A stretch of DNA of 13,396 nucleotides from an uncultured archaeon (GTDB lineage: Archaea; Iainarchaeota; Iainarchaeia; Iainarchaeales; 0-14-0-20-30-16): contig CAZQQS010000016.1 of NCBI GenBank assembly GCA_964595665.1, positions 1 through 13,396 on the forward strand, written 5' to 3'. Made by a program: the position numbers and the translations under genes. A model generated the notes under the pieces. It ran no database searches, was not told where the DNA came from, and was given only the letters and a program-made list of their open reading frames with translations. Numbering within the stretch: the stretch's first letter is position 1; every line of letters starts with the position of its first letter. This document shows positions 2-13,060 of the stretch, piece after piece.

Positions 2-577
2 AAACTTATTTTCAACATTGTAATTATTGCTTTAATAGCTATTTTGGCAATATTTACTTTAATTGTGTTTTTAGATAAAGATTATAAATATAGATTAGAT
101 TACGACAAAGTATTATTCTATTCAGATAATAATGTTTTTGATGACTTGTCTATACTTAAAGATGCAAATTTAGTTTTAATTGCTTTTGACAATACTCAAA
201 CAGCACATATTGCTAGTTTAATTCAATATATTCAAGTATTTACAATTTATAACAAACAAACTAATTTTTATATTATGTCAGAAAATGAATGTATTTTTTC
301 AGACACAAATACAAGAGCATATAACATAGTAAAAAAGGAAGAATGTGAATCTTTTTTAAATAATATAAATTATACAAAAATAATTCTTGGAAACATAAAT
401 ACAAAATTAACCAAAACTACAATTTATATTGAAAATAATACTTATAAAATAGTTTCAAATTCAAAAGAAAGTTTTAACGAATATTCTAAATTCTTAGAAA
501 TCTTATATCCTGATTATGCAGAAAGATTATTTGGTTTAGAAGAATTTACTTCAGATATTACTAAAAAAATTAGTTAG
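2..577 (+). CDS. Hypothetical membrane-anchored protein; 5' end probably lies outside the window
   Basis: The frame is open from nt 2 to TAG at 575-577. The track start at 44 is a TTG inside a hydrophobic helix (KLIFNIVIIALIAILAIFTLIVFL), so the real start is probably upstream of the window. I recognise no family motif in the soluble part. It is convergent with the last pilin-like gene and overlaps it by 8 nt. Confidence 0.5.
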   Translation, partial: KLIFNIVIIALIAILAIFTLIVFLDKDYKYRLDYDKVLFYSDNNVFDDLSILKDANLVLIAFDNTQTAHIASLIQYIQVFTIYNKQTNFYIMSENECIFSDTNTRAYNIVKKEECESFLNNINYTKIILGNINTKLTKTTIYIENNTYKIVSNSKESFNEYSKFLEILYPDYAERLFGLEEFTSDITKKIS

Positions 578-1241
578 ATAAAACATTTTGAACTTCTGTA
601 GTTAATACTTTACACTCTTCTAACATTTCTGTATTTAAATCGTGAGATAACCAACTACCTAAATAAATTGCACCATCTTCTTTTTTTGCCTCAGATGTAA
701 TAATATTATTAAACAATAAAAATTTTCCCTCAACAACAATTAAATCCAAAGAAACATTTTCCAAAAAAGAAATTAATTCGAAATCATTTGTACAATCATA
801 ATATTTTACTTCATCGTCAATTGTAATTTTTATTAATGTAAATAAATGCGTTAATATTTGCTCTTGATTTGCACTTGTCGTGTGATTTATGGATAAAAAA
901 TAATCTCTTTGATTATATGGTTTAAAAATATCTTCTAAAACTAAAAAAGCAGATATTTTTGTAAGTGTGTTTACATCGCCCCAACCATAATCTTCTTTTA
1001 TTAATGTTGAAATAGAATCTCTATAATTAGATTCATTAAAAGTATTTCCATCTCTCGAACCAGATGCACTAAAAAAAGATTTTAATGCAGAGTTATGATA
1101 ATTTTCTTTATACACTTGTTCGGCAGTAGATACAACATCATTACCATATGTTAAACCATAACTTACAATCAAAACAAATATTCCTGAAACTATTGTTAAG
1201 AATAATAATGCGTCTGTCGATGCAGCTTGTCCTTTCATCAT
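570..1241 (-). CDS. Class III signal peptide (archaeal type IV pilin-like) protein, 4th gene of the operon
   Basis: The N-terminus MMKG|QAASTDALLFLTIVSGIFVLIVSYGL has a short basic n-region and the KG|Q motif typical of archaeal prepilin peptidase substrates, followed by a ~20-aa hydrophobic helix. The ~190-aa ectodomain has 2 Cys. The start lies 1 nt after the upstream stop, with a GTGGT SD-like motif upstream. Confidence 0.7.
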   Translation of the reverse strand: MMKGQAASTDALLFLTIVSGIFVLIVSYGLTYGNDVVSTAEQVYKENYHNSALKSFFSASGSRDGNTFNESNYRDSISTLIKEDYGWGDVNTLTKISAFLVLEDIFKPYNQRDYFLSINHTTSANQEQILTHLFTLIKITIDDEVKYYDCTNDFELISFLENVSLDLIVVEGKFLLFNNIITSEAKKEDGAIYLGSWLSHDLNTEMLEECKVLTTEVQNVLSN

Positions 1242-1242
1242 A

Positions 1243-1815
1243 TTACCACGTCAAAACATATAAGTAAACTACTTTTGTACCATTAGGTGTGTATAAAGTT
1301 ACAGGAAAAATATATTGAAAATATTTTCTTGTTTTTACATATTCTATAAATTCAGAAAAATCACCATTATATTCTTTATTTAATTTATTTTCAACATTTC
1401 TACTAGCTCTAAAATAATATTCTTGATCTTCACAATCACAATTTCCTTCAGGAATACAAAAATCTTCTGAAAATATTATTTTATCATTACATTGCGAAAC
1501 AAATAACTCTTTATAATTTGTTAAACCCTCTAAATCAAATCCTTGCTCAGGAGACACCAATCCAAAAATATAATTTGATAAAATAACTAAATCTTTTGAT
1601 GTATTCATAAAATCTTCATAACTAGAAAAATTACTTTTTCCTAATGCTGATTTTGCAATAGTTAATGAATCTAAATAAGTATTCATTTGTGAATTTCTAT
1701 CATTAATAGTTGTGAAAACAAATGCCAACCCTGCAAAAAAAATCATTAATGCAAAGAATAAAGGAATTAAACTTGGCAAATCATCTCCAATTGAACCTAT
1801 AAAACCTTTTTTCAT
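1243..1815 (-). CDS. Class III signal peptide (pilin-like) protein, 3rd gene of the operon
   Basis: I prefer the ATG at 1815 (MKKG|FIGSIGDDLPSLIPLFFALMIFFAGLAFVF) over the track's TTG at 1845. It gives a KKG|F class III-like N-terminus and sits 2 nt after the upstream stop at 1818-1820. The mature part has 4 Cys, including a CDC cluster. Confidence 0.65.
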   Translation of the reverse strand: MKKGFIGSIGDDLPSLIPLFFALMIFFAGLAFVFTTINDRNSQMNTYLDSLTIAKSALGKSNFSSYEDFMNTSKDLVILSNYIFGLVSPEQGFDLEGLTNYKELFVSQCNDKIIFSEDFCIPEGNCDCEDQEYYFRASRNVENKLNKEYNGDFSEFIEYVKTRKYFQYIFPVTLYTPNGTKVVYLYVLTW

Positions 1816-1817
1816 TT

Positions 1818-2465
1818 TTATTCCCCAATAATTAATGGTACACAATAAAACTTTTCGCCTTGTGTACCAGATGTATTTAAACTTTTAGTTAAATCTGTTA
1901 ATTTTTCATAACAATCATTAAATCCAGATTCTCCAAAAAGAGGATCATAATCACAAGGTACAAAATAAATTTTTGTTTTTTGTTCATTATTTTTAGAATA
2001 TGAATTTTTAACCATATATAACACCCTTGTTTCTGTTGGATTAATATCTATTTCCTTAATTGTATTTGTGCTAGATTCATTATAAAAAACTAATTCTGCA
2101 TTTGTTTTAAAACTCTCAATAGCTATAGATTTCTTTGTACTTCTATTATAAACATCAAAAATAATAAATCTCGAATTATTAGATTCCTGAGTAGTAATTT
2201 TTATACCATAATAAATTGGCGTAAATGTTGCAGTATCACTAACTCCAAAAATATCAATATATTTTGGCAATAAAACTCTTTTAGATGCACATAAAGTATC
2301 TGATTCGGACATGTATTTTATTTGTTTGGCAATAATATTACTTATTTGTACTGTTTCATCTGCTAAAAAAACATCTTTTACACTTAATGAAAAAAATAAC
2401 AATATAGAGGCCATAGATATTGCAAAAATTAATATTCCTAATTTTGATAAAATAAAATCAATCAT
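1818..2465 (-). CDS. N-terminally anchored hypothetical protein (pilin-like accessory, non-canonical signal), 2nd gene of the operon
   Basis: The N-terminus MIDFILSKLGILIFAISMASILLFFSLSV is a single N-terminal helix with no adjacent K/R-G cleavage motif. Its ATG overlaps the upstream TGA (ATGA at 2462-2465), and an AGGTGA SD (complement of 2470-2475) lies inside the upstream gene. The protein has 4 Cys. Confidence 0.65.
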   Translation of the reverse strand: MIDFILSKLGILIFAISMASILLFFSLSVKDVFLADETVQISNIIAKQIKYMSESDTLCASKRVLLPKYIDIFGVSDTATFTPIYYGIKITTQESNNSRFIIFDVYNRSTKKSIAIESFKTNAELVFYNESSTNTIKEIDINPTETRVLYMVKNSYSKNNEQKTKIYFVPCDYDPLFGESGFNDCYEKLTDLTKSLNTSGTQGEKFYCVPLIIGE

Positions 2466-3016
2466 CTATTCACCTTATAAAAATATATTTTGGGAGTACC
2501 AGAAGCACTTCCAAAAGTATTGTTCTTTATAATATACATTCCATTTTTCAATTCTAAATCTGATTCTATAGTAGGCACAATAGAATATCCTTCTGGTGCT
2601 TCTGAAGATGTACCTATGTTTATCGATGGAGAAATATTCACACAATTAAATCTAGTTTGAGATGCTTTATCTTTATTATTTGTATATCTTAACAAATAAC
2701 AATTGGAACTCGAACCCGGACAATAAGATGAACACAATCTTGGATCTGAAACTTTCATTAATAAAATATTATAATCTGTGCCAAAACAATTTGGGGTTTG
2801 AACACTAAATTTTGTAGATATTAAAGGACTATTTGCCCCATCTTCAATATATCTCTTCAACTCTAATAAAGACAAATCTATTGTTTTAGAACATTTTGTA
2901 TTTGATAGGGAAGTCATTGCAAATGCTCCCGCAGTTAATACAAACCCTAAAAGTATAACTGATATTAACACTTCAAATACAGTATCGGATTGTCCTTTAT
3001 TATTAAATAATATCAT
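2462..3016 (-). CDS. Class III signal peptide (archaeal type IV pilin-like) protein, 1st gene of the operon
   Basis: The N-terminus MILFNNKG|QSDTVFEVLISVILLGFVLTAGAFAM has the KG|Q motif and an acidic residue a few positions into the mature N-terminus, followed by a hydrophobic helix. The ~150-aa ectodomain has 6 Cys. There is no SD, and a TATA-like box lies ~27 nt upstream, which suggests a leaderless transcript. Confidence 0.7.
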   Translation of the reverse strand: MILFNNKGQSDTVFEVLISVILLGFVLTAGAFAMTSLSNTKCSKTIDLSLLELKRYIEDGANSPLISTKFSVQTPNCFGTDYNILLMKVSDPRLCSSYCPGSSSNCYLLRYTNNKDKASQTRFNCVNISPSINIGTSSEAPEGYSIVPTIESDLELKNGMYIIKNNTFGSASGTPKIYFYKVNR

Positions 3017-3067: not shown

Positions 3068-5581
3068 ATGTTTGATATTTTTGATACTATTATAGAAGAT
3101 ACTCCCAAAACCAAAAAAAAACAACCTAAAAAGGACTTGGAAGAAACAACTATTGAAAATTCTGAAAACCCTATAATAGAAGATGAACAAAATACAAATG
3201 ATAATTCTGAAGAAATAAATACTATTGAAGAACCAGAATCTGAAGATCAAGAAGAAGAAATAATTGCAAAAAAAGGCAAAAATGAAAATGTAGAATTAAC
3301 CTTTTTAGAAAATCCTGAAACTGGTCACGCAATAATCGGAAGACAAAAATCTGTTTTTAAAAAATATGGTGAAGAAGGCACATTATACTTAGGAAAAGTA
3401 AATGAACCAAATTATCCTGAAAAAGAAGTTTATTTTGATTCTTTAAATCCACAAGTAGTTTTTATTTGTGGATCAAGAGGTTCTGGTAAATCTTACATGT
3501 TAGGGGTATTAGCTGAAGAATTAGCTATTAAAAATAAAAATGTTGGACAAATTGTTGTAGATCCAATAGGTGTATTTTGGTCTATGCGATACCCAAATAA
3601 AGAAAAAAGAGAAATGGAATTATTAGATGAATTTGGTTTGAATCCTATGGGCTTAGAAAATATAATGGTATTTGTGCCTGAAGGTGCATCTGAAAAAATT
3701 CCAAAAGAAACTTTTGATTCTACTTTTACATTACAACCTTCATTTTTAAATTCTGAAGATTGGGCATTAACATTTAGTATTGATAGATTCTCACCTTCTG
3801 GTTTATTATTAGAAAAAGTAATTAAAAAAGTTAAAGATGGATATAGATCTTTGAAAGGTTTAATATTCAAAGCAAAAGATGAAAATTATGATTTAAACGA
3901 TATTATTTTTTGTTTAGAAAATGATGCTGAATTAAATTCAAAAGAAAAAGGATATAGAAAGGAATCTATTAGAGCGTTAGTTTCAAGATTTGAAGCTGCA
4001 AAAACTTGGGGCATATTTTCTAAACGAGGAACTCCTTTAATGGAATTATCTGTTCCTGGACAATTAACAATTATTGATACAAGCTTTTTAGAAGAAAATG
4101 TTTCTGCATTGTTAGTTGGAATATTAGCAAGAAGAATATTAAATGCAAGAAAAATGAATTCGAGAAAAGAGGCAACAAAACAAATGGGATCAAATACAAA
4201 AATTGATTTGGAAAATGATATCCCTCCTACATGGTTATTTTTAGATGAGGCACACACTTTAATACCTTCTGGTTCATTAGCTACCCCAGCATCAAAAGCA
4301 ATTGTAGAATATGTAAAACAAGGACGAAAACCTGGTTGTTCATTAGTTGTAGCAACACAACAACCTTCAGCTATTGATACACGAGTATTATCACAGGTAG
4401 GAACATTAGCAACATATAAATTAATTTTTGATGATGATATTAAAGCTGTATTTAGAAGAATGCCCTCAATAGTTCCAAAAACATATAAAGAACCAGATTT
4501 TATTAAAAAATTAGGAATAGGAATTCCAATATTTGCTGATAGAGTAGAAACAACTTCAAGAGCATTTGTTTTAAATGTAAGACCAAGAATGTCTCAACAC
4601 GAAGGTAGAGAAATACAAACATCAGAAACATCACATAATTTTACAGATGAAGAAGCATTAGATGTAATGGTTGATATTACAAAAAGTAAATTAAAACAAT
4701 TTGAAGAATTAGATGAACATTCATTAAAAACATTATTAAAAATTATGAATATGAAATTTAAAAAAGATGTAAAATATAAAGAATATATTGCAAAACTTTT
4801 AGAAAACGAAATAGTAGAAGATAAAGGAAAATTCTTTATCCCGAAAGATGAAGATGATAGTGAATATTTTGAAGAAAAAATTAGTTATAGTGTTTTAGAT
4901 TCACAATATACACATGAAGAAATGACTGGTTCAGCAAAGCGAGCTACAGGTTGGCAAAATTTTAATGTAAATCATGTTTATAGACCGATATTTAAAGTTA
5001 ATTATAGAGTACATAATAACGATGGTAGTTTTGCAGAAAATACATGTTATATTGATGCAGTAAAAGTAGAATTCATACATTATATTGATGATGATTTTGT
5101 ATACTCTGAAGGTTTAAGCATATTAAGAACTTTAGAAGCAGATGATATTAGAATATTATTAGCTTTGCCTAAAAAAAGAGGATTTGATAACGAATATTTA
5201 AAAGACGCTTTTCCATATGGAGATGTAAAATTAAAAAATAGTATGGATAGGTTTATTAGTATGGGTATTTTGAGAAAAGAAAAAAGAAGCACAAAAAATG
5301 TTTTCTTTTTAATTAAGAATTTAGAATTACCTAAAAATCCAATACATAAAATGCTTTCTACTTTTGAAGATCTAAATTTAAGTCAAGAACCAGTAGACAA
5401 AGACAATATTTTGGATGCTAGATCTACATTTGAAACTGTTAGAAACGTTTTAGGAACTCTTTGGGAAACTATAAAAATAGATGAAATTGAAACTGTTCTA
5501 AAACCAGAATATTTAATAACTAATTTAGATACTAAAGAAACTGTTTTATTTGATGCATTTACTGGAAAGAAAATTGTTTAA
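3068..5581 (+). CDS. HerA/FtsK/VirB4-class P-loop ATPase (DUF87/COG0433-like) with acidic N-terminal tail and long C-terminal extension
   Basis: Walker A is VVFICGSRGSGKS (about 3470-3493). Walker B is WLFLDEAH (about 4232-4255). An ATQQPS motif (4352-4369) resembles the TQRPS motif of HerA/FtsK ATPases, and the core ends in RPRMSQHEGRE, like the R-x-S/T-x-H-G-G ending of DUF87 proteins. The first ~70 aa are D/E/N-rich and low complexity. Residues ~530-837 have no motif I can name, apart from two winged-helix-like stretches. Confidence 0.85.
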   Translation: MFDIFDTIIEDTPKTKKKQPKKDLEETTIENSENPIIEDEQNTNDNSEEINTIEEPESEDQEEEIIAKKGKNENVELTFLENPETGHAIIGRQKSVFKKYGEEGTLYLGKVNEPNYPEKEVYFDSLNPQVVFICGSRGSGKSYMLGVLAEELAIKNKNVGQIVVDPIGVFWSMRYPNKEKREMELLDEFGLNPMGLENIMVFVPEGASEKIPKETFDSTFTLQPSFLNSEDWALTFSIDRFSPSGLLLEKVIKKVKDGYRSLKGLIFKAKDENYDLNDIIFCLENDAELNSKEKGYRKESIRALVSRFEAAKTWGIFSKRGTPLMELSVPGQLTIIDTSFLEENVSALLVGILARRILNARKMNSRKEATKQMGSNTKIDLENDIPPTWLFLDEAHTLIPSGSLATPASKAIVEYVKQGRKPGCSLVVATQQPSAIDTRVLSQVGTLATYKLIFDDDIKAVFRRMPSIVPKTYKEPDFIKKLGIGIPIFADRVETTSRAFVLNVRPRMSQHEGREIQTSETSHNFTDEEALDVMVDITKSKLKQFEELDEHSLKTLLKIMNMKFKKDVKYKEYIAKLLENEIVEDKGKFFIPKDEDDSEYFEEKISYSVLDSQYTHEEMTGSAKRATGWQNFNVNHVYRPIFKVNYRVHNNDGSFAENTCYIDAVKVEFIHYIDDDFVYSEGLSILRTLEADDIRILLALPKKRGFDNEYLKDAFPYGDVKLKNSMDRFISMGILRKEKRSTKNVFFLIKNLELPKNPIHKMLSTFEDLNLSQEPVDKDNILDARSTFETVRNVLGTLWETIKIDEIETVLKPEYLITNLDTKETVLFDAFTGKKIV

Positions 5582-5582
5582 A

Positions 5583-6797
5583 TTATTTTAAATCCAAATC
5601 TTTAGCATAATAATTCTTTCCAAAAACAGGATTTTTAGATAAGAACATTTTGTAAATCAATAATATAAATAACAAAATTCCCAAACCAAATAATATTGCT
5701 ATTGTAGATTCATCAGACATTGAAAAAAATCCAGTTATTGGCATTAAAGAAAAACTACTATCTTTATTTTTATCTACTATATCTGATTCATTTAATACAA
5801 ATTCACTAAATAATTTTTTATCCAAATAAACTTGAATATTTTTATCCAAATTATCAAAACTTAATAAATAATCTTGAGTTGGCCTTAATAATAAATTATA
5901 AGTTTTATTTTGTGTAACTATGTTTATTTGAGAGATATTATTACCTGTATTTATTAAATTTAAAGTTCTATTTTCTTTATTAAATATAACCATAATATCA
6001 TTTACACTTTTTGTAAAATTTGCCGTACCTAAAGAATATTCTTTATTAGTAGAAACTTCATTTGCAAAGAAATAAATTCTTGTAAAATCTATATCATAGT
6101 TTGCATCAAAAGTAATATTTACTAAAACATTTTTTTCAGAATCTTTTTGCACTACTATATATTTATTATCAAACTCAACATGAACTTTATTCTTATCTTT
6201 TGAATCTATAAAATAATCTAAATAATAATTTGCACTTGAACCTGTATTAGTTAATGTAAAGATAATTTGTTTTTTATCCTCATCTTTAATTAAAAAATTC
6301 TTTTGCGAAGTATTTTTAATTATTAAATTAGGTAATTCATTAGTATATTTATCAGTTTCAAATAATATGTTAGATTTTTCTACAACATTTACTTTAATAA
6401 TTGTTTCTTTTACACTTTTTATTCCTTCATAATTTAGAACATTTTTTAATTTAATATAATATTCTCCTAATGGAATATCATTAGAAACAAAAACTCTTAA
6501 AGGTAATCTAAAATCATAAAAACTTTTTTGATCTTTAGCATAATAAACAGTTATGCCTTCTGGAGATAAAACCTCAAATGAAAAATCTAATTCTTTAGAC
6601 GTATTAAATTTATAATCTATAAAAACACTATAATTAGAACCTTGTTGTAAAGTTAATAAATTAGTTTCAGGAACAACACTATAATTCATATTGTATTCAT
6701 ATGAATTAACAAAGGCCAATGTCAATAATATGGCTACAACTAAAATTAAACCTTTTAAAAAACCTTTTTGACTATTAAATGAAATATCTCTAATCAT
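5583..6797 (-). CDS. Secreted/surface protein: N-terminal signal peptide, beta-rich Ig-like repeats, C-terminal TM anchor
   Basis: The N-terminus MIRDISFNSQKGFLKGLILVVAILLTLAFVNS looks like a signal peptide. The alternative ATG at 6812 adds only MHILY. The long Cys-free body is N/K/Y/V-rich with alternating beta-strand-like patterning and about ten N-x-S/T sequons. The C-terminal helix IAILFGLGILLFILLIYKMFL is followed by a basic tail. The TTTATAAA at 6820-6827 lies ~26 nt upstream of the 6797 ATG. Confidence 0.7.
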   Translation of the reverse strand: MIRDISFNSQKGFLKGLILVVAILLTLAFVNSYEYNMNYSVVPETNLLTLQQGSNYSVFIDYKFNTSKELDFSFEVLSPEGITVYYAKDQKSFYDFRLPLRVFVSNDIPLGEYYIKLKNVLNYEGIKSVKETIIKVNVVEKSNILFETDKYTNELPNLIIKNTSQKNFLIKDEDKKQIIFTLTNTGSSANYYLDYFIDSKDKNKVHVEFDNKYIVVQKDSEKNVLVNITFDANYDIDFTRIYFFANEVSTNKEYSLGTANFTKSVNDIMVIFNKENRTLNLINTGNNISQINIVTQNKTYNLLLRPTQDYLLSFDNLDKNIQVYLDKKLFSEFVLNESDIVDKNKDSSFSLMPITGFFSMSDESTIAILFGLGILLFILLIYKMFLSKNPVFGKNYYAKDLDLK

Positions 6798-6890
6798 ATA
6801 TAATATATGCATACAAACCTTTATAAATCATTATTGTTTAACTCATATAGTTAAAGTGAAGGTTTTTATTATTTCCTTATATATATAATT
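6798..6890. promoter_or_regulatory. Divergent promoter region between the surface protein and the TM-wHTH ORF
   Basis: The palindromic TATA-like octamer TTTATAAA at 6820-6827 serves the minus gene. The T/A-rich TTTTTATTA at ~6863-6871 lies ~24 nt upstream of the ATG at 6891. No SD motif precedes either start. Confidence 0.35.
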
Positions 6891-7958
6891 ATGAATTATA
6901 TTCAAAAAGCATTATTTTTAGGAGTTTTTTTATTAATCTTGCCCATAATATCAGCAAATAACGAAATTTATGTAGATATTCATCAAGATATTCCGTATAT
7001 AGATTATACTATTTATTATGATTCTAATTTCGAAATGTATTTGCCAGATTTTCAAGAATTAATTTATATTAAGGGTTTGCCAGAACTAAATTATGATATT
7101 ATTGATTCTAAATTATATGTTTATAGTGCTAAAGGAACTTTAGTATTGAAATACAAAGGAAATGAATTCTTAGAAAATAAAAATACTTTAGAAAAGACAT
7201 TAGATTTTGATATTTTAAATAATACAGTAATAATTGTAAAATCAGATAAAGAATTTTTAAAAATAAATTCAGATTACAATAAAGATAATGATAAACACGT
7301 ATATGAAACAAATGAAGACTTTGTATTATATTTGGTTTATGAAAATGTTTCAAAATATTTCAATTTAGTTTTAGGATTTGTAATAAGCATTATTTTAATA
7401 ATTATTATTTTCAGCATATATTTTTACTATAAAAAAGCTAATCAAAAAAATAATACTAGATTTTTAGATATTAATCAAAATAATATTTTAAATTTAGTTA
7501 AAAATAACTCTTTAACGCAACAAGAAGTTGCCAACAAATTAAATATTAAAAAAAGCCATATGAGTAAAATTCTAAATAAAATGGAAAGGCAAGATTTAAT
7601 TGAGAGAAAAAAAATTGGGAAAATAAATATTGCTAACAAAAATACAAAAATAAAAAGCCCAGGAATGAAGTATAAACACTATAGTCCAAAAGCAAAAATT
7701 ATTTTGTTAGATAACTTATTAAATATTAAAAATAATTATTCAAAAGATAAAACAATAATAATTACCAAACATAAAATTAAAACACCTTATAAAAACATCA
7801 TTTATCAAAACAACTCAAAATTAGCTAAAAATATTTTTGCATGGTTTAGATATGCAGATTCAAAAAAATTTAATTTAATAATTATTGAAAAACCCAGAAA
7901 CAAAAATTTAGGGGCAAGTATATTAAATAGATTAGAAAAGGCAGCTTCAAAAAGCTAA
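6891..7958 (+). CDS. Chimeric protein: signal peptide + ectodomain + TM helix + MarR/ArsR-like winged HTH + orphan Sua5 C-terminal domain
   Basis: Residues 1-23, MNYIQKALFLGVFLLILPIISAN, form a signal peptide or anchor. Residues 156-180, YFNLVLGFVISIILIIIIFSIYFYY followed by KKANQK, form a TM helix (nt 7356-7430). Residues ~193-247, NILNLVKNNSLTQQEVANKLNIKKSHMSKILNKMERQDLIERKKIGK, form a wHTH (nt ~7467-7631). Residues 255-355 begin SPGMKYKHYSP and end NLGASILNRLEKAA. These match the conserved linker and C-terminal motifs of the Sua5 domain of threonylcarbamoyl-AMP synthase (nt 7653-7955). No YrdC catalytic domain is present. Confidence 0.75.
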   Translation: MNYIQKALFLGVFLLILPIISANNEIYVDIHQDIPYIDYTIYYDSNFEMYLPDFQELIYIKGLPELNYDIIDSKLYVYSAKGTLVLKYKGNEFLENKNTLEKTLDFDILNNTVIIVKSDKEFLKINSDYNKDNDKHVYETNEDFVLYLVYENVSKYFNLVLGFVISIILIIIIFSIYFYYKKANQKNNTRFLDINQNNILNLVKNNSLTQQEVANKLNIKKSHMSKILNKMERQDLIERKKIGKINIANKNTKIKSPGMKYKHYSPKAKIILLDNLLNIKNNYSKDKTIIITKHKIKTPYKNIIYQNNSKLAKNIFAWFRYADSKKFNLIIIEKPRNKNLGASILNRLEKAASKS

Positions 7959-11026: not shown

Positions 11027-11545
11027 CTATTCCTCCTTAGAAATATTTTTTGCTAATTTAACTTTTGAATATCTTAATACTTTATCATTATACAAATAAC
11101 CTTTTTGTAGTTCATCTAAAATAATATTATCTTCTTTATCACTTTCTTCTTGTAATAAAACTTCGTGATAATTAGGATCAAATTTTTTATTTAAACAATC
11201 AATTCTTTTTACATTATATTTTTCAAAAACCTTTTCCATATTTTTGTAAATCATTGTTAATCCTTTTAAATCTTCAGGATTTTTTATTAAGGGCAAAGCT
11301 CTTTCAAAATCATCAAAAATATTTAATAAATCTAATAATAAATTCTTATTTGCACATTTGATTTCATTTTCTAATTGTTTAGAAACTTGTTTTTTATAAT
11401 TCTCAAAATCTGCTAATAAATATTTACTATGCTGCGAAATATCTTGGAGTTTTTGTTCTAATAATTGATTTTGTGTTTTCAATTGCTCTATCTCTTGCTC
11501 CAATATCTGCAATTCCTTTTGTTCCTTTACCAATTCTTTGTTCAA
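11027..11545 (-). CDS. grpE: Nucleotide exchange factor GrpE (start re-called to TTG at 11545)
   Basis: A coiled-coil N-terminus ([27 protein letters not shown]) is followed by the GrpE core ([12 protein letters not shown]...[15 protein letters not shown]...DPNYHEVL). The track's first 31 aa (RSINITCLIFINIYKSFALFIFYNFF...) look like translated promoter DNA. An AGGTGG SD (complement of 11552-11557) sits 6 nt upstream of the TTG at 11545. Confidence 0.88.
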
Positions 11546-11760
11546 TAAAAACCACCTAAAAAAGTTATAAAATATAAATAAAGCAAAGGATTTATAAATG
11601 TTTATGAAAATTAGACAAGTTATGTTTATACTTCTCAAATAATTCGATTTTGATTGTTAAAACCAAATTACTTTCAAGTAAGTTTTTGTATATTAAAATA
11701 ACAAAAGAAAAGTTTATATAATCTATTAAAATATTTATTTTATAGTTATGAGGTGATAAT
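11546..11760. promoter_or_regulatory. Divergent heat-shock promoter region (grpE-dnaK-dnaJ versus hsp20)
   Basis: TTTATAAA at 11591-11598 lies ~46-53 nt upstream of the grpE start and leaves room for an SD-bearing leader. TTTATATA at 11713-11720 lies upstream of hsp20. A GAGGTGA SD is at 11750-11756. The inverted repeat TTACTT-TC-AAGTAA at 11668-11681 lies between the two TATA boxes. Confidence 0.45.
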
Positions 11761-12246
11761 ATGATTGCAAAAAAGAAATCTAAGAAAATAATTTCAAAAC
11801 CTAAAACAAAACCAAATAAAAAATTAGAAATTATTGAAAATAAAAATCCCTTTAATAACTTAATTGATTTAGAGAAAAATTTTTTTGATAATGATTTAAT
11901 GAATTTATTTGGAAAAATAAATTTACCTAGTACAGATATAGAAAATAAAAAAGATACTATAGAATTAACTGCAGATTTACCAGGCGTAAATAAAAACGAA
12001 ATAAAGATTTGTGTAAATAAAGATTCTGTTGAAATCTCTGCAGAAAAGAAAGCTGAAAAAAACACGCAAGAGAAAAATTACTATAAACAAGAAAGAACAT
12101 ATTCTGGATATCATAGAGTTATATCTTTACCTGCATTAGTTGATCCAAACAAAACAAAATGCGATTTTGTTAATGGCACATTAAAAATCACAATAAAAAA
12201 GCTAAAAGACAAAATCGATAAACCAAAAATGATTACTTTGAAATAG
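11761..12246 (+). CDS. Small heat-shock protein, Hsp20/alpha-crystallin family
   Basis: The alpha-crystallin domain pattern is IELTADLPGVNKNEIKICVNKDSVEISAEKK...YSGYHRVISLPALVDPNKTKCDFVNGTLKITIKK. The N-terminal arm is lysine-rich. A GAGGTGA SD lies 4 nt upstream of the ATG. Confidence 0.9.
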   Translation: MIAKKKSKKIISKPKTKPNKKLEIIENKNPFNNLIDLEKNFFDNDLMNLFGKINLPSTDIENKKDTIELTADLPGVNKNEIKICVNKDSVEISAEKKAEKNTQEKNYYKQERTYSGYHRVISLPALVDPNKTKCDFVNGTLKITIKKLKDKIDKPKMITLK

Positions 12247-12297
12247 ATTTTCTATTGTCTTTAAATGACATCTTAAAGATAGACTTTAAAGATATAT

Positions 12298-12354
12298 GTT
12301 AATAATTTGAAGATTGGTTGTTTCTGATTATTAACATTTCTTTTTTATTTTTTT
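12298..12354 (+). terminator. Candidate hsp20 terminator: A/T hairpin plus oligo-T tracts
   Basis: GTTAATAAT (12298-12306) and ATTATTAAC (12327-12335) form a perfect 9-bp inverted repeat around a 20-nt loop. It is followed by T6 (12341-12346) and T7 (12348-12354) runs on the plus strand. Oligo-T tracts are the usual archaeal termination signal. Confidence 0.35.
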
Positions 12355-12984
12355 CTATTCTGAATGAATAAGTTTTTTTAAATATTTTGCAATCATTAAC
12401 ATAAACAACTTATAAATTAAAATAATCAAACCAAAACTAAAGGTTATTATGTGCAATCCCAAAACATCCAATCTAAAATCTAAAAATAATGCTACAATTA
12501 AACTTATAGCTGCCAACCCAACATATACTCCTAAAAAATATAACATTTCTTGGTAAATTTTTAATTCAAAACTTAATTTGAATATTTTTTTCAAAACTAA
12601 TTTAATAAATTCATTTAAAAAGGAATAAATTAAACTTATAACTAAAAGAAATTTAAAAAACATCAAAAAATCAATTGAATTTCCAAAAATTTGTGTAAAA
12701 ATAATTAATAAATTTCCAACACATAGCGCTCCAAAATCACCAAATAAAAAAATTAGTGGAAAAAAAAGCATTATTGAAGAAAATATAAAAAATACTGTAC
12801 CTAAAGAACTTAAATATAAAAATAAAAAATATAATGGATACGCTATTTTTTTAAGAAATCTTTTTAATTTAAAACCATTTCTATATGCTTCCGCAGAAAT
12901 TGGAAACTCTTTTTCAAATTCAGGAGTAATATTGGATTCATGTTTTATTATTTTATTCCAATCATCCAATGTTTTTTTAACCAT
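12355..12984 (-). CDS. Hypothetical polytopic membrane protein (about 5 TM helices)
   Basis: The soluble N-terminus MVKKTLDDWNKIIKHESNITPEFEKEFPISAEAYRNGFKLKRFLKK is followed by about five hydrophobic helices. I prefer the ATG at 12984 to the track start at 13032. A TTTATAT box (complement of ~13004-13012) lies ~26 nt upstream of it, and MFCNRKDIYMLMCILI looks non-coding. No family is recognised. Confidence 0.55.
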   Translation of the reverse strand: MVKKTLDDWNKIIKHESNITPEFEKEFPISAEAYRNGFKLKRFLKKIAYPLYFLFLYLSSLGTVFFIFSSIMLFFPLIFLFGDFGALCVGNLLIIFTQIFGNSIDFLMFFKFLLVISLIYSFLNEFIKLVLKKIFKLSFELKIYQEMLYFLGVYVGLAAISLIVALFLDFRLDVLGLHIITFSFGLIILIYKLFMLMIAKYLKKLIHSE

Positions 12985-13060
12985 AATTAAAATACACATT
13001 AACATATAAATATCTTTTCTATTACAAAACATTTATATAATTCTAATTTCTTTTTAATTC
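12985..13060. promoter_or_regulatory. Divergent promoter region (membrane protein versus deaminase)
   Basis: TTTATATA at 13032-13039 lies ~26 nt upstream of the ATG at 13061 on the plus strand. An ATATTTATATG element on the minus strand, around 13003-13013, lies ~26 nt upstream of the ATG at 12984. Neither start has an SD, which is consistent with leaderless mRNAs. Confidence 0.35.

What the first reader, a model, noticed from the sequence alone, without database searches (positions are those of the whole stretch)
6891..7958. Orphan Sua5 C-terminal domain fused in frame to a membrane-tethered winged-HTH protein, with no YrdC catalytic domain
The last ~100 residues (SPGMKYKHYSPKAKIILLDN ... 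NLGASILNRLEKAASKS) match the conserved inter-domain linker and C-terminal domain of Sua5-type threonylcarbamoyl-AMP synthase, the first step of universal tRNA t6A synthesis. The ~200-aa YrdC-like catalytic domain that should precede the P-G-M-x-Y-K-H-Y-x-P linker is missing. The upstream residues are instead a wHTH whose wing appears cut short (ERKKIGKINIANKNTKIK|SPGM). This looks like a deletion that fused a regulator gene to the 3' third of sua5. Alternatively it is a genuine new domain architecture in which the Sua5 domain acts as a ligand-sensing module on a one-component regulator. If this is the only sua5/tsaC locus, the organism would lack or outsource t6A synthesis, which would be remarkable. 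The junction region is A-rich, with an A8 run at 7608-7615, so an assembly or indel artefact must be excluded.
Basis: partly seen in the sequence, partly recalled or inferred. Interest (0 to 1): 0.65.

Follow-up and report, generated by a model that had tools for sequence, protein, structure and literature searches.

The report
Deletion scar fusing regulator to sua5 tail
The odd "regulator plus Sua5 tail" gene is what remains after about 2 kb of DNA was lost between two short matching sequences, which removed two small genes and the catalytic part of the tRNA-modification gene sua5; it is not a new kind of protein.

Summary
Window 6891-7958(+) is one 355-aa ORF with a signal/TM segment, an extracytoplasmic beta-sandwich, a TM helix, a MarR-like wHTH (about residues 194-241), then the Sua5 linker and SUA5 domain (PF03481, E=1e-22). 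No YrdC/TsaC domain occurs in any frame of the window.

The cause is a deletion. Syntenic relatives (L001-L004, L168, L174+L007) carry HerA, a 400-aa gene, wHTH (254 aa), a 293-aa gene, an 86-aa gene, full Sua5 (316 aa), then DnaJ-DnaK-GrpE. The window lacks about 1.95 kb of this. Both breakpoints lie on an in-phase (I/V)GK(V/I)N-coding direct repeat found in both parent genes, so the fusion is automatically in frame.

The architecture is unique among 285 database hits. The Sua5 remnant shows no decay: 17 of 18 highly conserved positions are kept and its divergence rate is normal. The event is therefore recent, or an assembly or chimera artefact that cannot be excluded without reads.

The product cannot make threonylcarbamoyl-AMP. 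sua5 is also cleanly absent at this locus in relative L005 and in L171-L173. Ongoing loss of Sua5 in this DPANN (Iainarchaeota-like) clade is therefore possible but untested.

Interest is low to moderate.

The parts
6891..7958 (+). Chimeric ORF, 355 aa: membrane-anchored wHTH regulator (residues 1-246) joined to the Sua5 linker and SUA5 domain (residues 247-355)
6891..7616 (+). Part derived only from the regulator gene: signal/TM residues 1-28, extracytoplasmic beta-sandwich residues 24-151, TM helix residues 152-183, cytoplasmic MarR-like wHTH residues 194-241. It is 67-71% identical to P0002-P0006 over residues 1-246.
7607..7614 (+). A8 run inside codons AGA AAA AAA ATT (R-K-K-I). It is ancestral, since L168 has AGA AAA AAA GTT, and it is in frame on both sides, so it is not an indel site.
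7617..7628 (+). Crossover microhomology GGG AAA ATA AAT (G-K-I-N). One copy remains of a direct repeat that relatives carry, in the same codon phase, at the end of the wHTH gene (residues 245-248) and in sua5 (residues 205-208).
7629..7958 (+). sua5-derived 3' remnant, equivalent to Sua5 residues 209-316 plus the stop codon. It holds the inter-domain linker and the SUA5 Rossmann-like domain and is 64-65% identical to intact orthologues.
7656..7688 (+). Linker motif S-P-G-M-K-Y-K-H-Y-S-P (PGM and HY motifs, which in Pa-Sua5 bind ATP/PPi in the now-missing catalytic domain). All invariant residues are intact.
   Evidence: PMC6004061
7955..9046 (-). dnaJ, convergent, with a 4-nt overlap with the sua5 stop as in L168. 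This is the downstream synteny anchor and shows that the sua5 3' end is native.
5583..6812 (-). 409-aa membrane protein, the upstream synteny anchor (68% identical to the L001 400-aa gene).

Best explanation
The ORF is the scar of a deletion of about 1.95 kb. In the ancestor the locus read wHTH regulator (254 aa), 293-aa secreted coiled-coil protein, 86-aa lipoprotein-like protein, then sua5 (316 aa), convergent with dnaJ. The wHTH gene codes (I/V)GK(V/I)N six codons before its stop. sua5 codes the same peptide at the end of its YrdC/TsaC-like domain (residues 205-208). Both use nearly the same 12 nt (GGN AAA GTA AAY) in the same codon phase. Recombination, slippage or end-joining between these two short direct repeats removed everything in between: the regulator's last 6 codons, its stop and terminator region, two whole genes, and sua5 codons 1 to about 208. 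One repeat copy was left (window 7617-7628). Because the repeat is read in the same phase in both genes, the product is in frame without any selection. The chimeric gene is driven by the regulator's own start and promoter. It probably still makes a membrane-anchored wHTH protein, now with a 109-residue SUA5 tail. It cannot synthesise threonylcarbamoyl-AMP because the whole catalytic domain is gone. What is shown: the deletion relative to relatives, the repeat at both breakpoints, the absence of a YrdC domain, the uniqueness of the fusion, and the lack of decay in the remnant. What is inferred: that the event is biological rather than an assembly artefact, that it is evolutionarily recent, and that the SUA5 tail is a passenger without function.
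For: Synteny: L001-L004, L168 and L174+L007 from one sample all have wHTH, 293 aa, 86 aa, Sua5(316 aa, PF01300+PF03481), then DnaJ. The more distant L169 has wHTH, 380 aa, 96 aa, Sua5. In tblastn of L001 proteins against the window, wHTH 1-248 maps to 6891-7628 and Sua5 201-315 maps to 7605-7952. The 293-aa and 86-aa genes have no hit, while HerA, the 400-aa gene, DnaJ, DnaK, GrpE and Hsp20 are all collinear. The codon-level junction is shown. In-register repeats of 8-10 nt exact (11-12 nt with one mismatch) occur in L001, L168 and L174/L007. The repeat-to-repeat distance is 1953 nt in L001 and 1954 nt in L168. Uniqueness: the fusion protein has 1 member on 1 contig; P0002-P0023 (wHTH relatives) have no PF03481; P0024-P0120 all have PF01300+PF03481. 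No decay: identity of the remnant to outgroup L169 is 49.6%, against 45.7-49.1% for intact orthologues. It keeps 17 of 18 columns that are >=90% conserved among 63 intact Sua5 (intact mean 0.96). This includes PGM, HY, P and two invariant Arg, R74 and R101 of the remnant, which I take, without a direct alignment to Pa-Sua5, to match its interface residues Arg301/Arg328. These residues are only known to act on or contact the missing domain (PMC6004061). The isolated SUA5 domain of Pa-Sua5 had no detectable ATPase activity and was unstable (PMC6004061). Microhomology-mediated end joining has been observed in archaea (PMC8708640).
Against: No reads are available, so a mis-join or chimeric template at the repeat cannot be excluded. 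No conspecific contig was found that shows either the same junction or the undeleted state. An intact, undecayed remnant is also what purifying selection on a functional domain would give. Loss of the catalytic domain of a near-universal, usually essential enzyme is a priori unlikely unless a second copy exists or t6A is dispensable here.
Confidence: 0.7

Rival explanations
1. Assembly or library artefact. The real genome has the intact arrangement wHTH, 293-aa gene, 86-aa gene, sua5. The contig skips the 1.95-kb segment because of a graph short-cut or a chimeric template (for example MDA or PCR) formed at the short GK(I/V)N-coding repeat. Alternatively, the contig represents only a minor deletion variant of the population.
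For: The junction sits exactly on a direct repeat, which is where both assemblers and chimeric amplification mis-join. The remnant shows no decay at all. The fusion is seen on a single contig only. The deleted gene is normally essential (PMC10321239).
Against: In relatives the exact in-register repeat is only 8-10 nt. Given the conserved flanking codons (ERKK|IGKIN|KIV in the regulator, EKI|IGKIN|IAN in sua5), I infer that the window's ancestor could hardly have shared more than about 16 nt. That is shorter than the k-mers assemblers normally use (>=21). sua5 is independently and cleanly missing from the same locus in relative L005 and in L171-173, so loss at this locus is biologically tolerated in the clade.
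Confidence: 0.25
2. Genuine new architecture. The SUA5 domain has been co-opted as a cytoplasmic ligand- or partner-binding module of a membrane-anchored one-component wHTH regulator and is kept by selection.
For: The reading frame is open through 109 sua5-derived codons in a 25% GC genome where stop codons arise easily. Conserved SUA5 positions are retained. The domain is predicted to fold on its own (pLDDT 80.7).
Against: There is a single occurrence among 285 homologues, and no relative of either parent family shows the fusion. The in-frame join is explained mechanically by the in-phase repeat. The residues retained include linker motifs whose only known role is in the active site of the absent domain (PMC6004061). 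The isolated SUA5 domain of Pa-Sua5 was poorly soluble, unstable and inactive. The deletion also removed two unrelated conserved genes.
Confidence: 0.04

Closest known systems
Sua5-type threonylcarbamoyl-AMP synthase (Pa-Sua5 6F87, St-Sua5 2EQA, T. maritima TsaC2 9D3H)
   Same: Residues 247-355 are the orthologous inter-domain linker (PGM, HY and P motifs) and the SUA5 Rossmann-like domain. This rests on Pfam E=1e-22, PDB sequence hits and fold hits.
   Different: The whole TsaC/YrdC-like catalytic domain (PF01300, KxR/SxN tetrad) is missing, so this is a gene fragment and not an enzyme.
Pa-Sua5 delta(1-239) construct (SUA5 domain alone), PMC6004061
   Same: It has the same content as the remnant apart from the linker: the SUA5 domain without the catalytic domain.
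   Different: That is an engineered protein, reported as less soluble, unstable and without ATPase activity. Here the fragment is appended to a membrane-anchored wHTH protein.
Eroding Sua5 of Archaeoglobi (A. profundus, A. fulgidus, A. veneficus), PMC10321239
   Same: This is natural erosion of sua5 by internal deletions.
   Different: There the linker and SUA5 domain are being lost while the catalytic domain is kept, giving a TsaC-like protein that is still functional. Here the reverse part is lost, which abolishes function.
Absence of sua5/tsaC in obligate DPANN ectosymbionts (Nanoarchaeum equitans, Nanobdella aerobiophila; not detected in Undinarchaeota and Huberarchaea), PMC10321239
   Same: This is a DPANN-type lineage in which the sua5 locus is inactivated. 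Relatives L005 and L171-173 also lack sua5 at this position.
   Different: Only 13.4 kb of the genome is known, so a second copy elsewhere cannot be excluded. Closer relatives (L001, L168, L007, L169) keep an intact sua5.
Membrane-anchored MarR/DUF7343-type wHTH proteins of Iainarchaeota-like DPANN (P0002-P0023, 253-279 aa; for example the Candidatus Diapherotrites CG08 protein COT14_00355)
   Same: Residues 1-246 are an orthologue (67-71% identity to the closest) with the same locus position next to the 400-aa membrane protein and HerA.
   Different: The native proteins end 6 residues after GK(V/I)N. Here that tail is replaced by 109 sua5-derived residues.

Membership tests
Sua5/TsaC threonylcarbamoyl-AMP synthase (COG0009) | TsaC/YrdC-like catalytic domain (PF01300) with the KxR/SxN tetrad | tested here: not met
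   No PF01300 hit in the ORF. tblastn with a relative's residues 1-200 finds nothing above noise in any frame of the window. The best weak hit, ORF 44-577, has no YrdC domain.
Sua5/TsaC threonylcarbamoyl-AMP synthase (COG0009) | Sua5-specific inter-domain linker with the PGM and HY motifs and the conserved Pro | tested here: met
   S-P-G-M-K-Y-K-H-Y-S-P lies at residues 256-266. P, G, K, Y, H, Y and P are invariant columns in a 64-sequence alignment. The motifs are defined in PMC6004061.
Sua5/TsaC threonylcarbamoyl-AMP synthase (COG0009) | C-terminal SUA5 domain (PF03481, atypical Rossmann fold, NRLxKA helix) | tested here: met
   PF03481 E=1e-22. AF2 model with Foldseek top hits 6f87, 9d3h and 2yv4. 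17 of 18 highly conserved columns are kept.
   The window protein is the only one of 285 hits with both domains; its cluster has 1 member on 1 contig. No locus in 160 fetched from metagenome and genome collections matches both halves.
Membrane-anchored MarR-like wHTH family (P0002-P0023) | Signal/TM segment, extracytoplasmic beta domain, TM helix, cytoplasmic wHTH, conserved locus position | tested here: met
   and synteny.
Membrane-anchored MarR-like wHTH family (P0002-P0023) | Native C-terminus a few residues after the wing motif GK(V/I)N | tested here: not met
   The native ...GKVNKIVLKN* is replaced by ...GKINIANKNTKIKSPGM....
Deletion between short direct repeats (microhomology-mediated) | Relatives carry the intervening DNA, and a short direct repeat sits at both breakpoints with one copy left at the junction | tested here: met
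Deletion between short direct repeats (microhomology-mediated) | Junction supported by primary reads from the organism | not testable with these tools
   No read data are available. Exact-protein look-ups for the fusion, DnaJ and the 409-aa neighbour found no other contig.

The most novel reading that the evidence does not exclude
The deletion is real and there is no second sua5/tsaC. On this reading, this Iainarchaeota-like DPANN lineage has just lost threonylcarbamoyl-AMP synthase. Its relatives show independent clean loss of sua5 from the same locus (L005, and the L171-173 lineage including the Diapherotrites CG08 MAG). The clade would then be caught in the act of abandoning, or outsourcing to a host, the first step of the otherwise universal t6A tRNA modification. 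That would extend what is so far documented only for Nanoarchaeum and Nanobdella.
Probability: 0.22. Interest if true: 0.55.

Novelty: new member of a known kind. Interest (0 to 1): 0.27.

Why it matters
As a protein architecture it does not matter. It is a one-off deletion product and should be annotated as a disrupted sua5 fused to a regulator, not as a new Sua5-domain regulator or a t6A enzyme. It is a clean example of how an in-phase microhomology yields an in-frame chimeric ORF that domain-based annotation would misread. The only wider interest concerns Sua5/TsaC, one of about 60 near-universal proteins, known to be missing only in obligate symbionts (PMC10321239). A partial deletion here, together with complete absence at the same locus in two related lineages, flags this DPANN clade as a place to look for ongoing loss of t6A synthesis. 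That needs whole genomes and reads.

Tried and rejected
1. Exact-sequence look-ups of the fusion protein, the adjacent DnaJ and the 409-aa neighbour, to find conspecific contigs with or without the deletion. None is on record.

2. The search for related loci with the fusion protein in metagenome contigs and genome contigs. Both scans were swamped by the generic PGMKYKHY Sua5 pattern.

3. A second homologue search with the L169 Sua5, to see whether the Diapherotrites CG08 MAG (no sua5 at this locus) has a sua5 elsewhere. There was no named hit from that MAG in the top 120, so the result is inconclusive. It did suggest, from equal contig lengths only, that P0015/P0122 and P0009/P0123 also pair a wHTH gene with sua5 on one contig.

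4. A weak tblastn similarity of the YrdC domain to ORF 44-577 (E=0.13). It was rejected because there is no Pfam YrdC hit in it or in its L003 orthologue.

5. P0124, an apparently C-terminally truncated Sua5 (291 aa), considered as further evidence of erosion. It is a frameshift at an A7 run with the rest of the gene intact in the next frame, possibly a sequencing error, so it was not used as evidence.

6. A full-length AF2 model from a mixed wHTH+Sua5 alignment. The SUA5 part came out at pLDDT 33-70 and is uninformative, probably because of the alignment. It was redone with a Sua5-only alignment. Alignment A2 misaligned the wHTH proteins and was discarded.

7. The sigma-70 promoter and terminator scan is uninformative for an AT-rich archaeal sequence.

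8. dN/dS was not attempted. At 65% amino-acid identity to the nearest relatives, synonymous sites are saturated. Amino-acid relative-rate and conserved-column tests were used instead.

9. There are no tRNA genes in the window.

Full report
**1. What is in the sequence**

Window 6891-7958(+) is a single 355-aa ORF with an ATG start. Its TAA stop overlaps the convergent dnaJ by 4 nt. The window is 25% G+C.

- Pfam places Sua5_C (PF03481) on residues 241-353 at E=1e-22, 81.6 bits against a cut-off of 22.9.
- A family of overlapping wHTH models (MarR_2, MarR, DUF7343, TrmB, HTH_24) falls on about residues 195-247.
- The YrdC/TsaC catalytic domain PF01300 is not found.
- Hydropathy gives two hydrophobic segments, residues 1-28 and 152-183.
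- An AF2 model shows a confident beta-sandwich at residues 24-151 (pLDDT above 90), a long TM helix, and a three-helix wHTH at residues 194-241.
- The C-terminal part matches the C-terminal domains of solved Sua5/TsaC2 structures by sequence: 9d3h, 6f87, 2eqa.
- Modelled with a Sua5-only alignment, it also matches by fold. pLDDT is 80.7 and the top Foldseek hits are 6f87 (TMq 0.66), 9d3h and 2yv4.
- No YrdC remnant exists in any frame of the window.

**2. What it is: a deletion scar**

A search of 5.8 billion proteins shows that the fusion is unique, with a cluster of one member on one contig, which is the window itself.

- The 22 listed relatives of the N-terminal part (P0002-P0023, 253-279 aa, up to 72% identity) all end just after the wHTH.
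- All listed proteins with a SUA5 domain (P0024-P0120) also have PF01300.

The loci of the closest relatives settle the matter. In L001-L004, in L168, and in L174+L007 (two contigs from one sample) the gene order is:

- HerA/DUF87
- a 400-aa membrane protein, on the minus strand
- wHTH, 254 aa
- a 293-aa protein
- an 86-aa protein
- Sua5, 316 aa, with PF01300 E=5e-59 and PF03481 E=9e-27
- DnaJ, DnaK and GrpE on the minus strand, then Hsp20

The window has the same order and orientation. tblastn identities to L001 are HerA 89%, the 400-aa gene 68%, DnaJ 84%, DnaK 92%, GrpE 80% and Hsp20 86%.

The L001 wHTH maps to 6891-7628 and L001 Sua5 residues 201-315 map to 7605-7952. The 293-aa and 86-aa genes and Sua5 residues 1-200 have no counterpart. 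The more distant L169 also has wHTH, 380 aa, 96 aa, then Sua5, so the intact arrangement is ancestral.

**3. How it happened**

The codon-level comparison is:

- regulator: ...E R K K V G K V N | K I V L K N *
- Sua5: ...I E K I I G K V N | V A D N K T K I K S P G M
- window: ...E R K K I G K I N | I A N K N T K I K S P G M

Both parental genes encode (I/V)GK(V/I)N with nearly the same 12 nt (GGN AAA GTA AAY). In relatives 8-10 nt of this are exact. The repeat is in the same codon phase in both genes.

The repeat-to-repeat distance is 1953 nt in L001 and 1954 nt in L168. A deletion between these direct repeats leaves one copy (window 7617-7628). It is automatically in frame, so no selection is needed to explain the open frame.

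The A8 run lies upstream in the R-K-K-I codons. It is also present in L168, and the frame on both sides matches the relatives, so a homopolymer indel is excluded.

Only the last six residues of the regulator (KIVLKN) are replaced. Microhomology-mediated joining has been observed in archaea (PMC8708640). Replication slippage would give the same product. Which of the two occurred is not determinable here.

**4. Age and function of the remnant**

The sua5-derived 109 codons are not decaying.

- Against the outgroup L169 the remnant is 49.6% identical. Intact orthologues are 45.7-49.1% identical to L169 over the same columns.
- In a 64-sequence alignment the remnant keeps 17 of 18 columns that are at least 90% conserved. 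The intact mean is 0.96, and the one mismatch, M to L in ILNRL, is shared with its intact relatives.
- The kept residues include PGM, HY, the conserved Pro and two invariant Arg, R74 and R101 of the remnant. I take these two to correspond to Arg301 and Arg328 of Pa-Sua5. That is an inference from their positions in the FR and NRL motifs, not a tested alignment to Pa-Sua5.
- In Pa-Sua5 these linker and interface residues act in, or contact, the catalytic domain. The isolated SUA5 domain had no ATPase activity and was unstable (PMC6004061).

Keeping residues whose only known partner is gone points to a very recent event or an artefact, rather than to a new function. The chimeric protein cannot make TC-AMP. 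It most likely still behaves as the membrane-anchored regulator with a passenger tail, which is an inference.

**5. Real or artefact**

No reads are available and no conspecific contig was found. A mis-join at a repeat is possible.

Given the conserved flanking codons, however, the shared stretch in the window's ancestor can hardly have exceeded about 16 nt. That is below usual assembler k-mers, though this is also an inference.

Loss of sua5 at this locus is clearly tolerated in the clade. In L005 the sua5 CDS is cleanly missing between the 86-aa gene's terminator and dnaJ. L005 lacks L001 positions 12063-13017, leaving a 63-nt spacer. In L171-173, which include a Diapherotrites CG08 MAG, a GDPD gene follows the small gene and no sua5 is present.

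I put about 0.70 on a real recent deletion, 0.25 on an artefact or minor variant, and 0.04 on a selected new architecture.

**6. Comparison with what is known**

The tail is a bona fide Sua5 linker plus SUA5 domain. The ORF nevertheless fails the defining feature of the Sua5/TsaC family, the catalytic domain.

The case is the mirror image of the eroding Sua5 of Archaeoglobi, which lose the SUA5 domain and keep catalysis (PMC10321239). sua5/tsaC are known to be absent only from obligate symbionts such as N. equitans and N. aerobiophila, and were not detected in Undinarchaeota and Huberarchaea (PMC10321239).

The nearest named relatives of this contig are Candidatus Diapherotrites and Candidatus Iainarchaeum-type DPANN archaea. 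A lineage-level loss of Sua5 would fit that pattern, but it cannot be shown from 13.4 kb.

**7. Verdict**

The new-architecture reading is rejected, and the t6A-loss reading is open. This is an ordinary kind of event, a gene-disrupting deletion between short repeats, in an unusual gene. Interest is low to moderate.

Noticed in passing
L005:9483-9545 (compare L001:12063-13017): In the relative with the most similar wHTH gene, the whole sua5 CDS is cleanly absent between the 86-aa gene's terminator hairpin and the dnaJ stop, leaving a 63-nt spacer. This is an independent loss, or relocation, of sua5 at the same locus.
   Followed up: partly
L171:7109-7834, L172:7802-8527, L169:4362-5030: In the Diapherotrites CG08-type relatives a GDPD (glycerophosphodiester phosphodiesterase) gene sits where sua5 is in L001. 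L169 has both sua5 and GDPD. The segment between the small lipoprotein-like gene and dnaJ therefore varies across the clade.
   Followed up: partly
L176:1300-1410: sua5 of this JGI relative is called as 291 aa because of a frameshift at an A7 run about 25 codons before the end. The next frame continues with ...GFGSAIINRLKKAESK*. This is either a homopolymer sequencing error or an incipient pseudogene.
   Followed up: partly
window 570-3016 (-): Four consecutive small ORFs (223, 200, 215 and 184 aa) each start with a short polar leader followed by a hydrophobic helix, for example MMKGQAAST... and MILFNNKGQSDTVFEVL... They look like archaeal type IV pilin-like proteins with class III signal peptides. 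None of the called genes at these positions in L001, L005 or L171 has a Pfam hit on record. The cluster is conserved in L001, L005 and L171.
   Followed up: no
window 3068-5581 (+): An 837-aa HerA/DUF87 ATPase lies divergent from the pilin-like cluster. Roughly its last 350 residues have no Pfam hit. It is 89% identical to the L001 orthologue, much more conserved than its neighbours (68%).
   Followed up: no
L005:2469-6170: The HerA orthologue of L005 is 1233 aa and carries an intein (Hint/Intein_splicing plus LAGLIDADG_3) inserted near residue 158 of the ATPase. The intein is absent from the window and from L001.
   Followed up: no
window 6891-7628 (+) and P0002-P0023: The parental regulator is itself an uncharacterised family: a signal/TM segment, a confident extracytoplasmic beta-sandwich (weak Foldseek similarity to the N-terminal domain of M1 aminopeptidases, TM about 0.25), a TM helix, and a minimal MarR-like wHTH. 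It always lies next to a 400-aa membrane protein and HerA in these DPANN contigs.
   Followed up: partly
L005:8343-9217: The 293-aa secreted coiled-coil gene, which is deleted in the window, is split into 116-aa and 175-aa ORFs in L005. The cause is a frameshift or an error.
   Followed up: no
window 11027-11638 (-) and 11592-12065 (-): The listed grpE ORF is 203 aa from a TTG start, with a hydrophobic N-terminal extension not matched by the L001 GrpE (130 or 174 aa as called). The true start is probably further downstream. The overlapping 157-aa ORF antisense to hsp20 is likely spurious.
   Followed up: no
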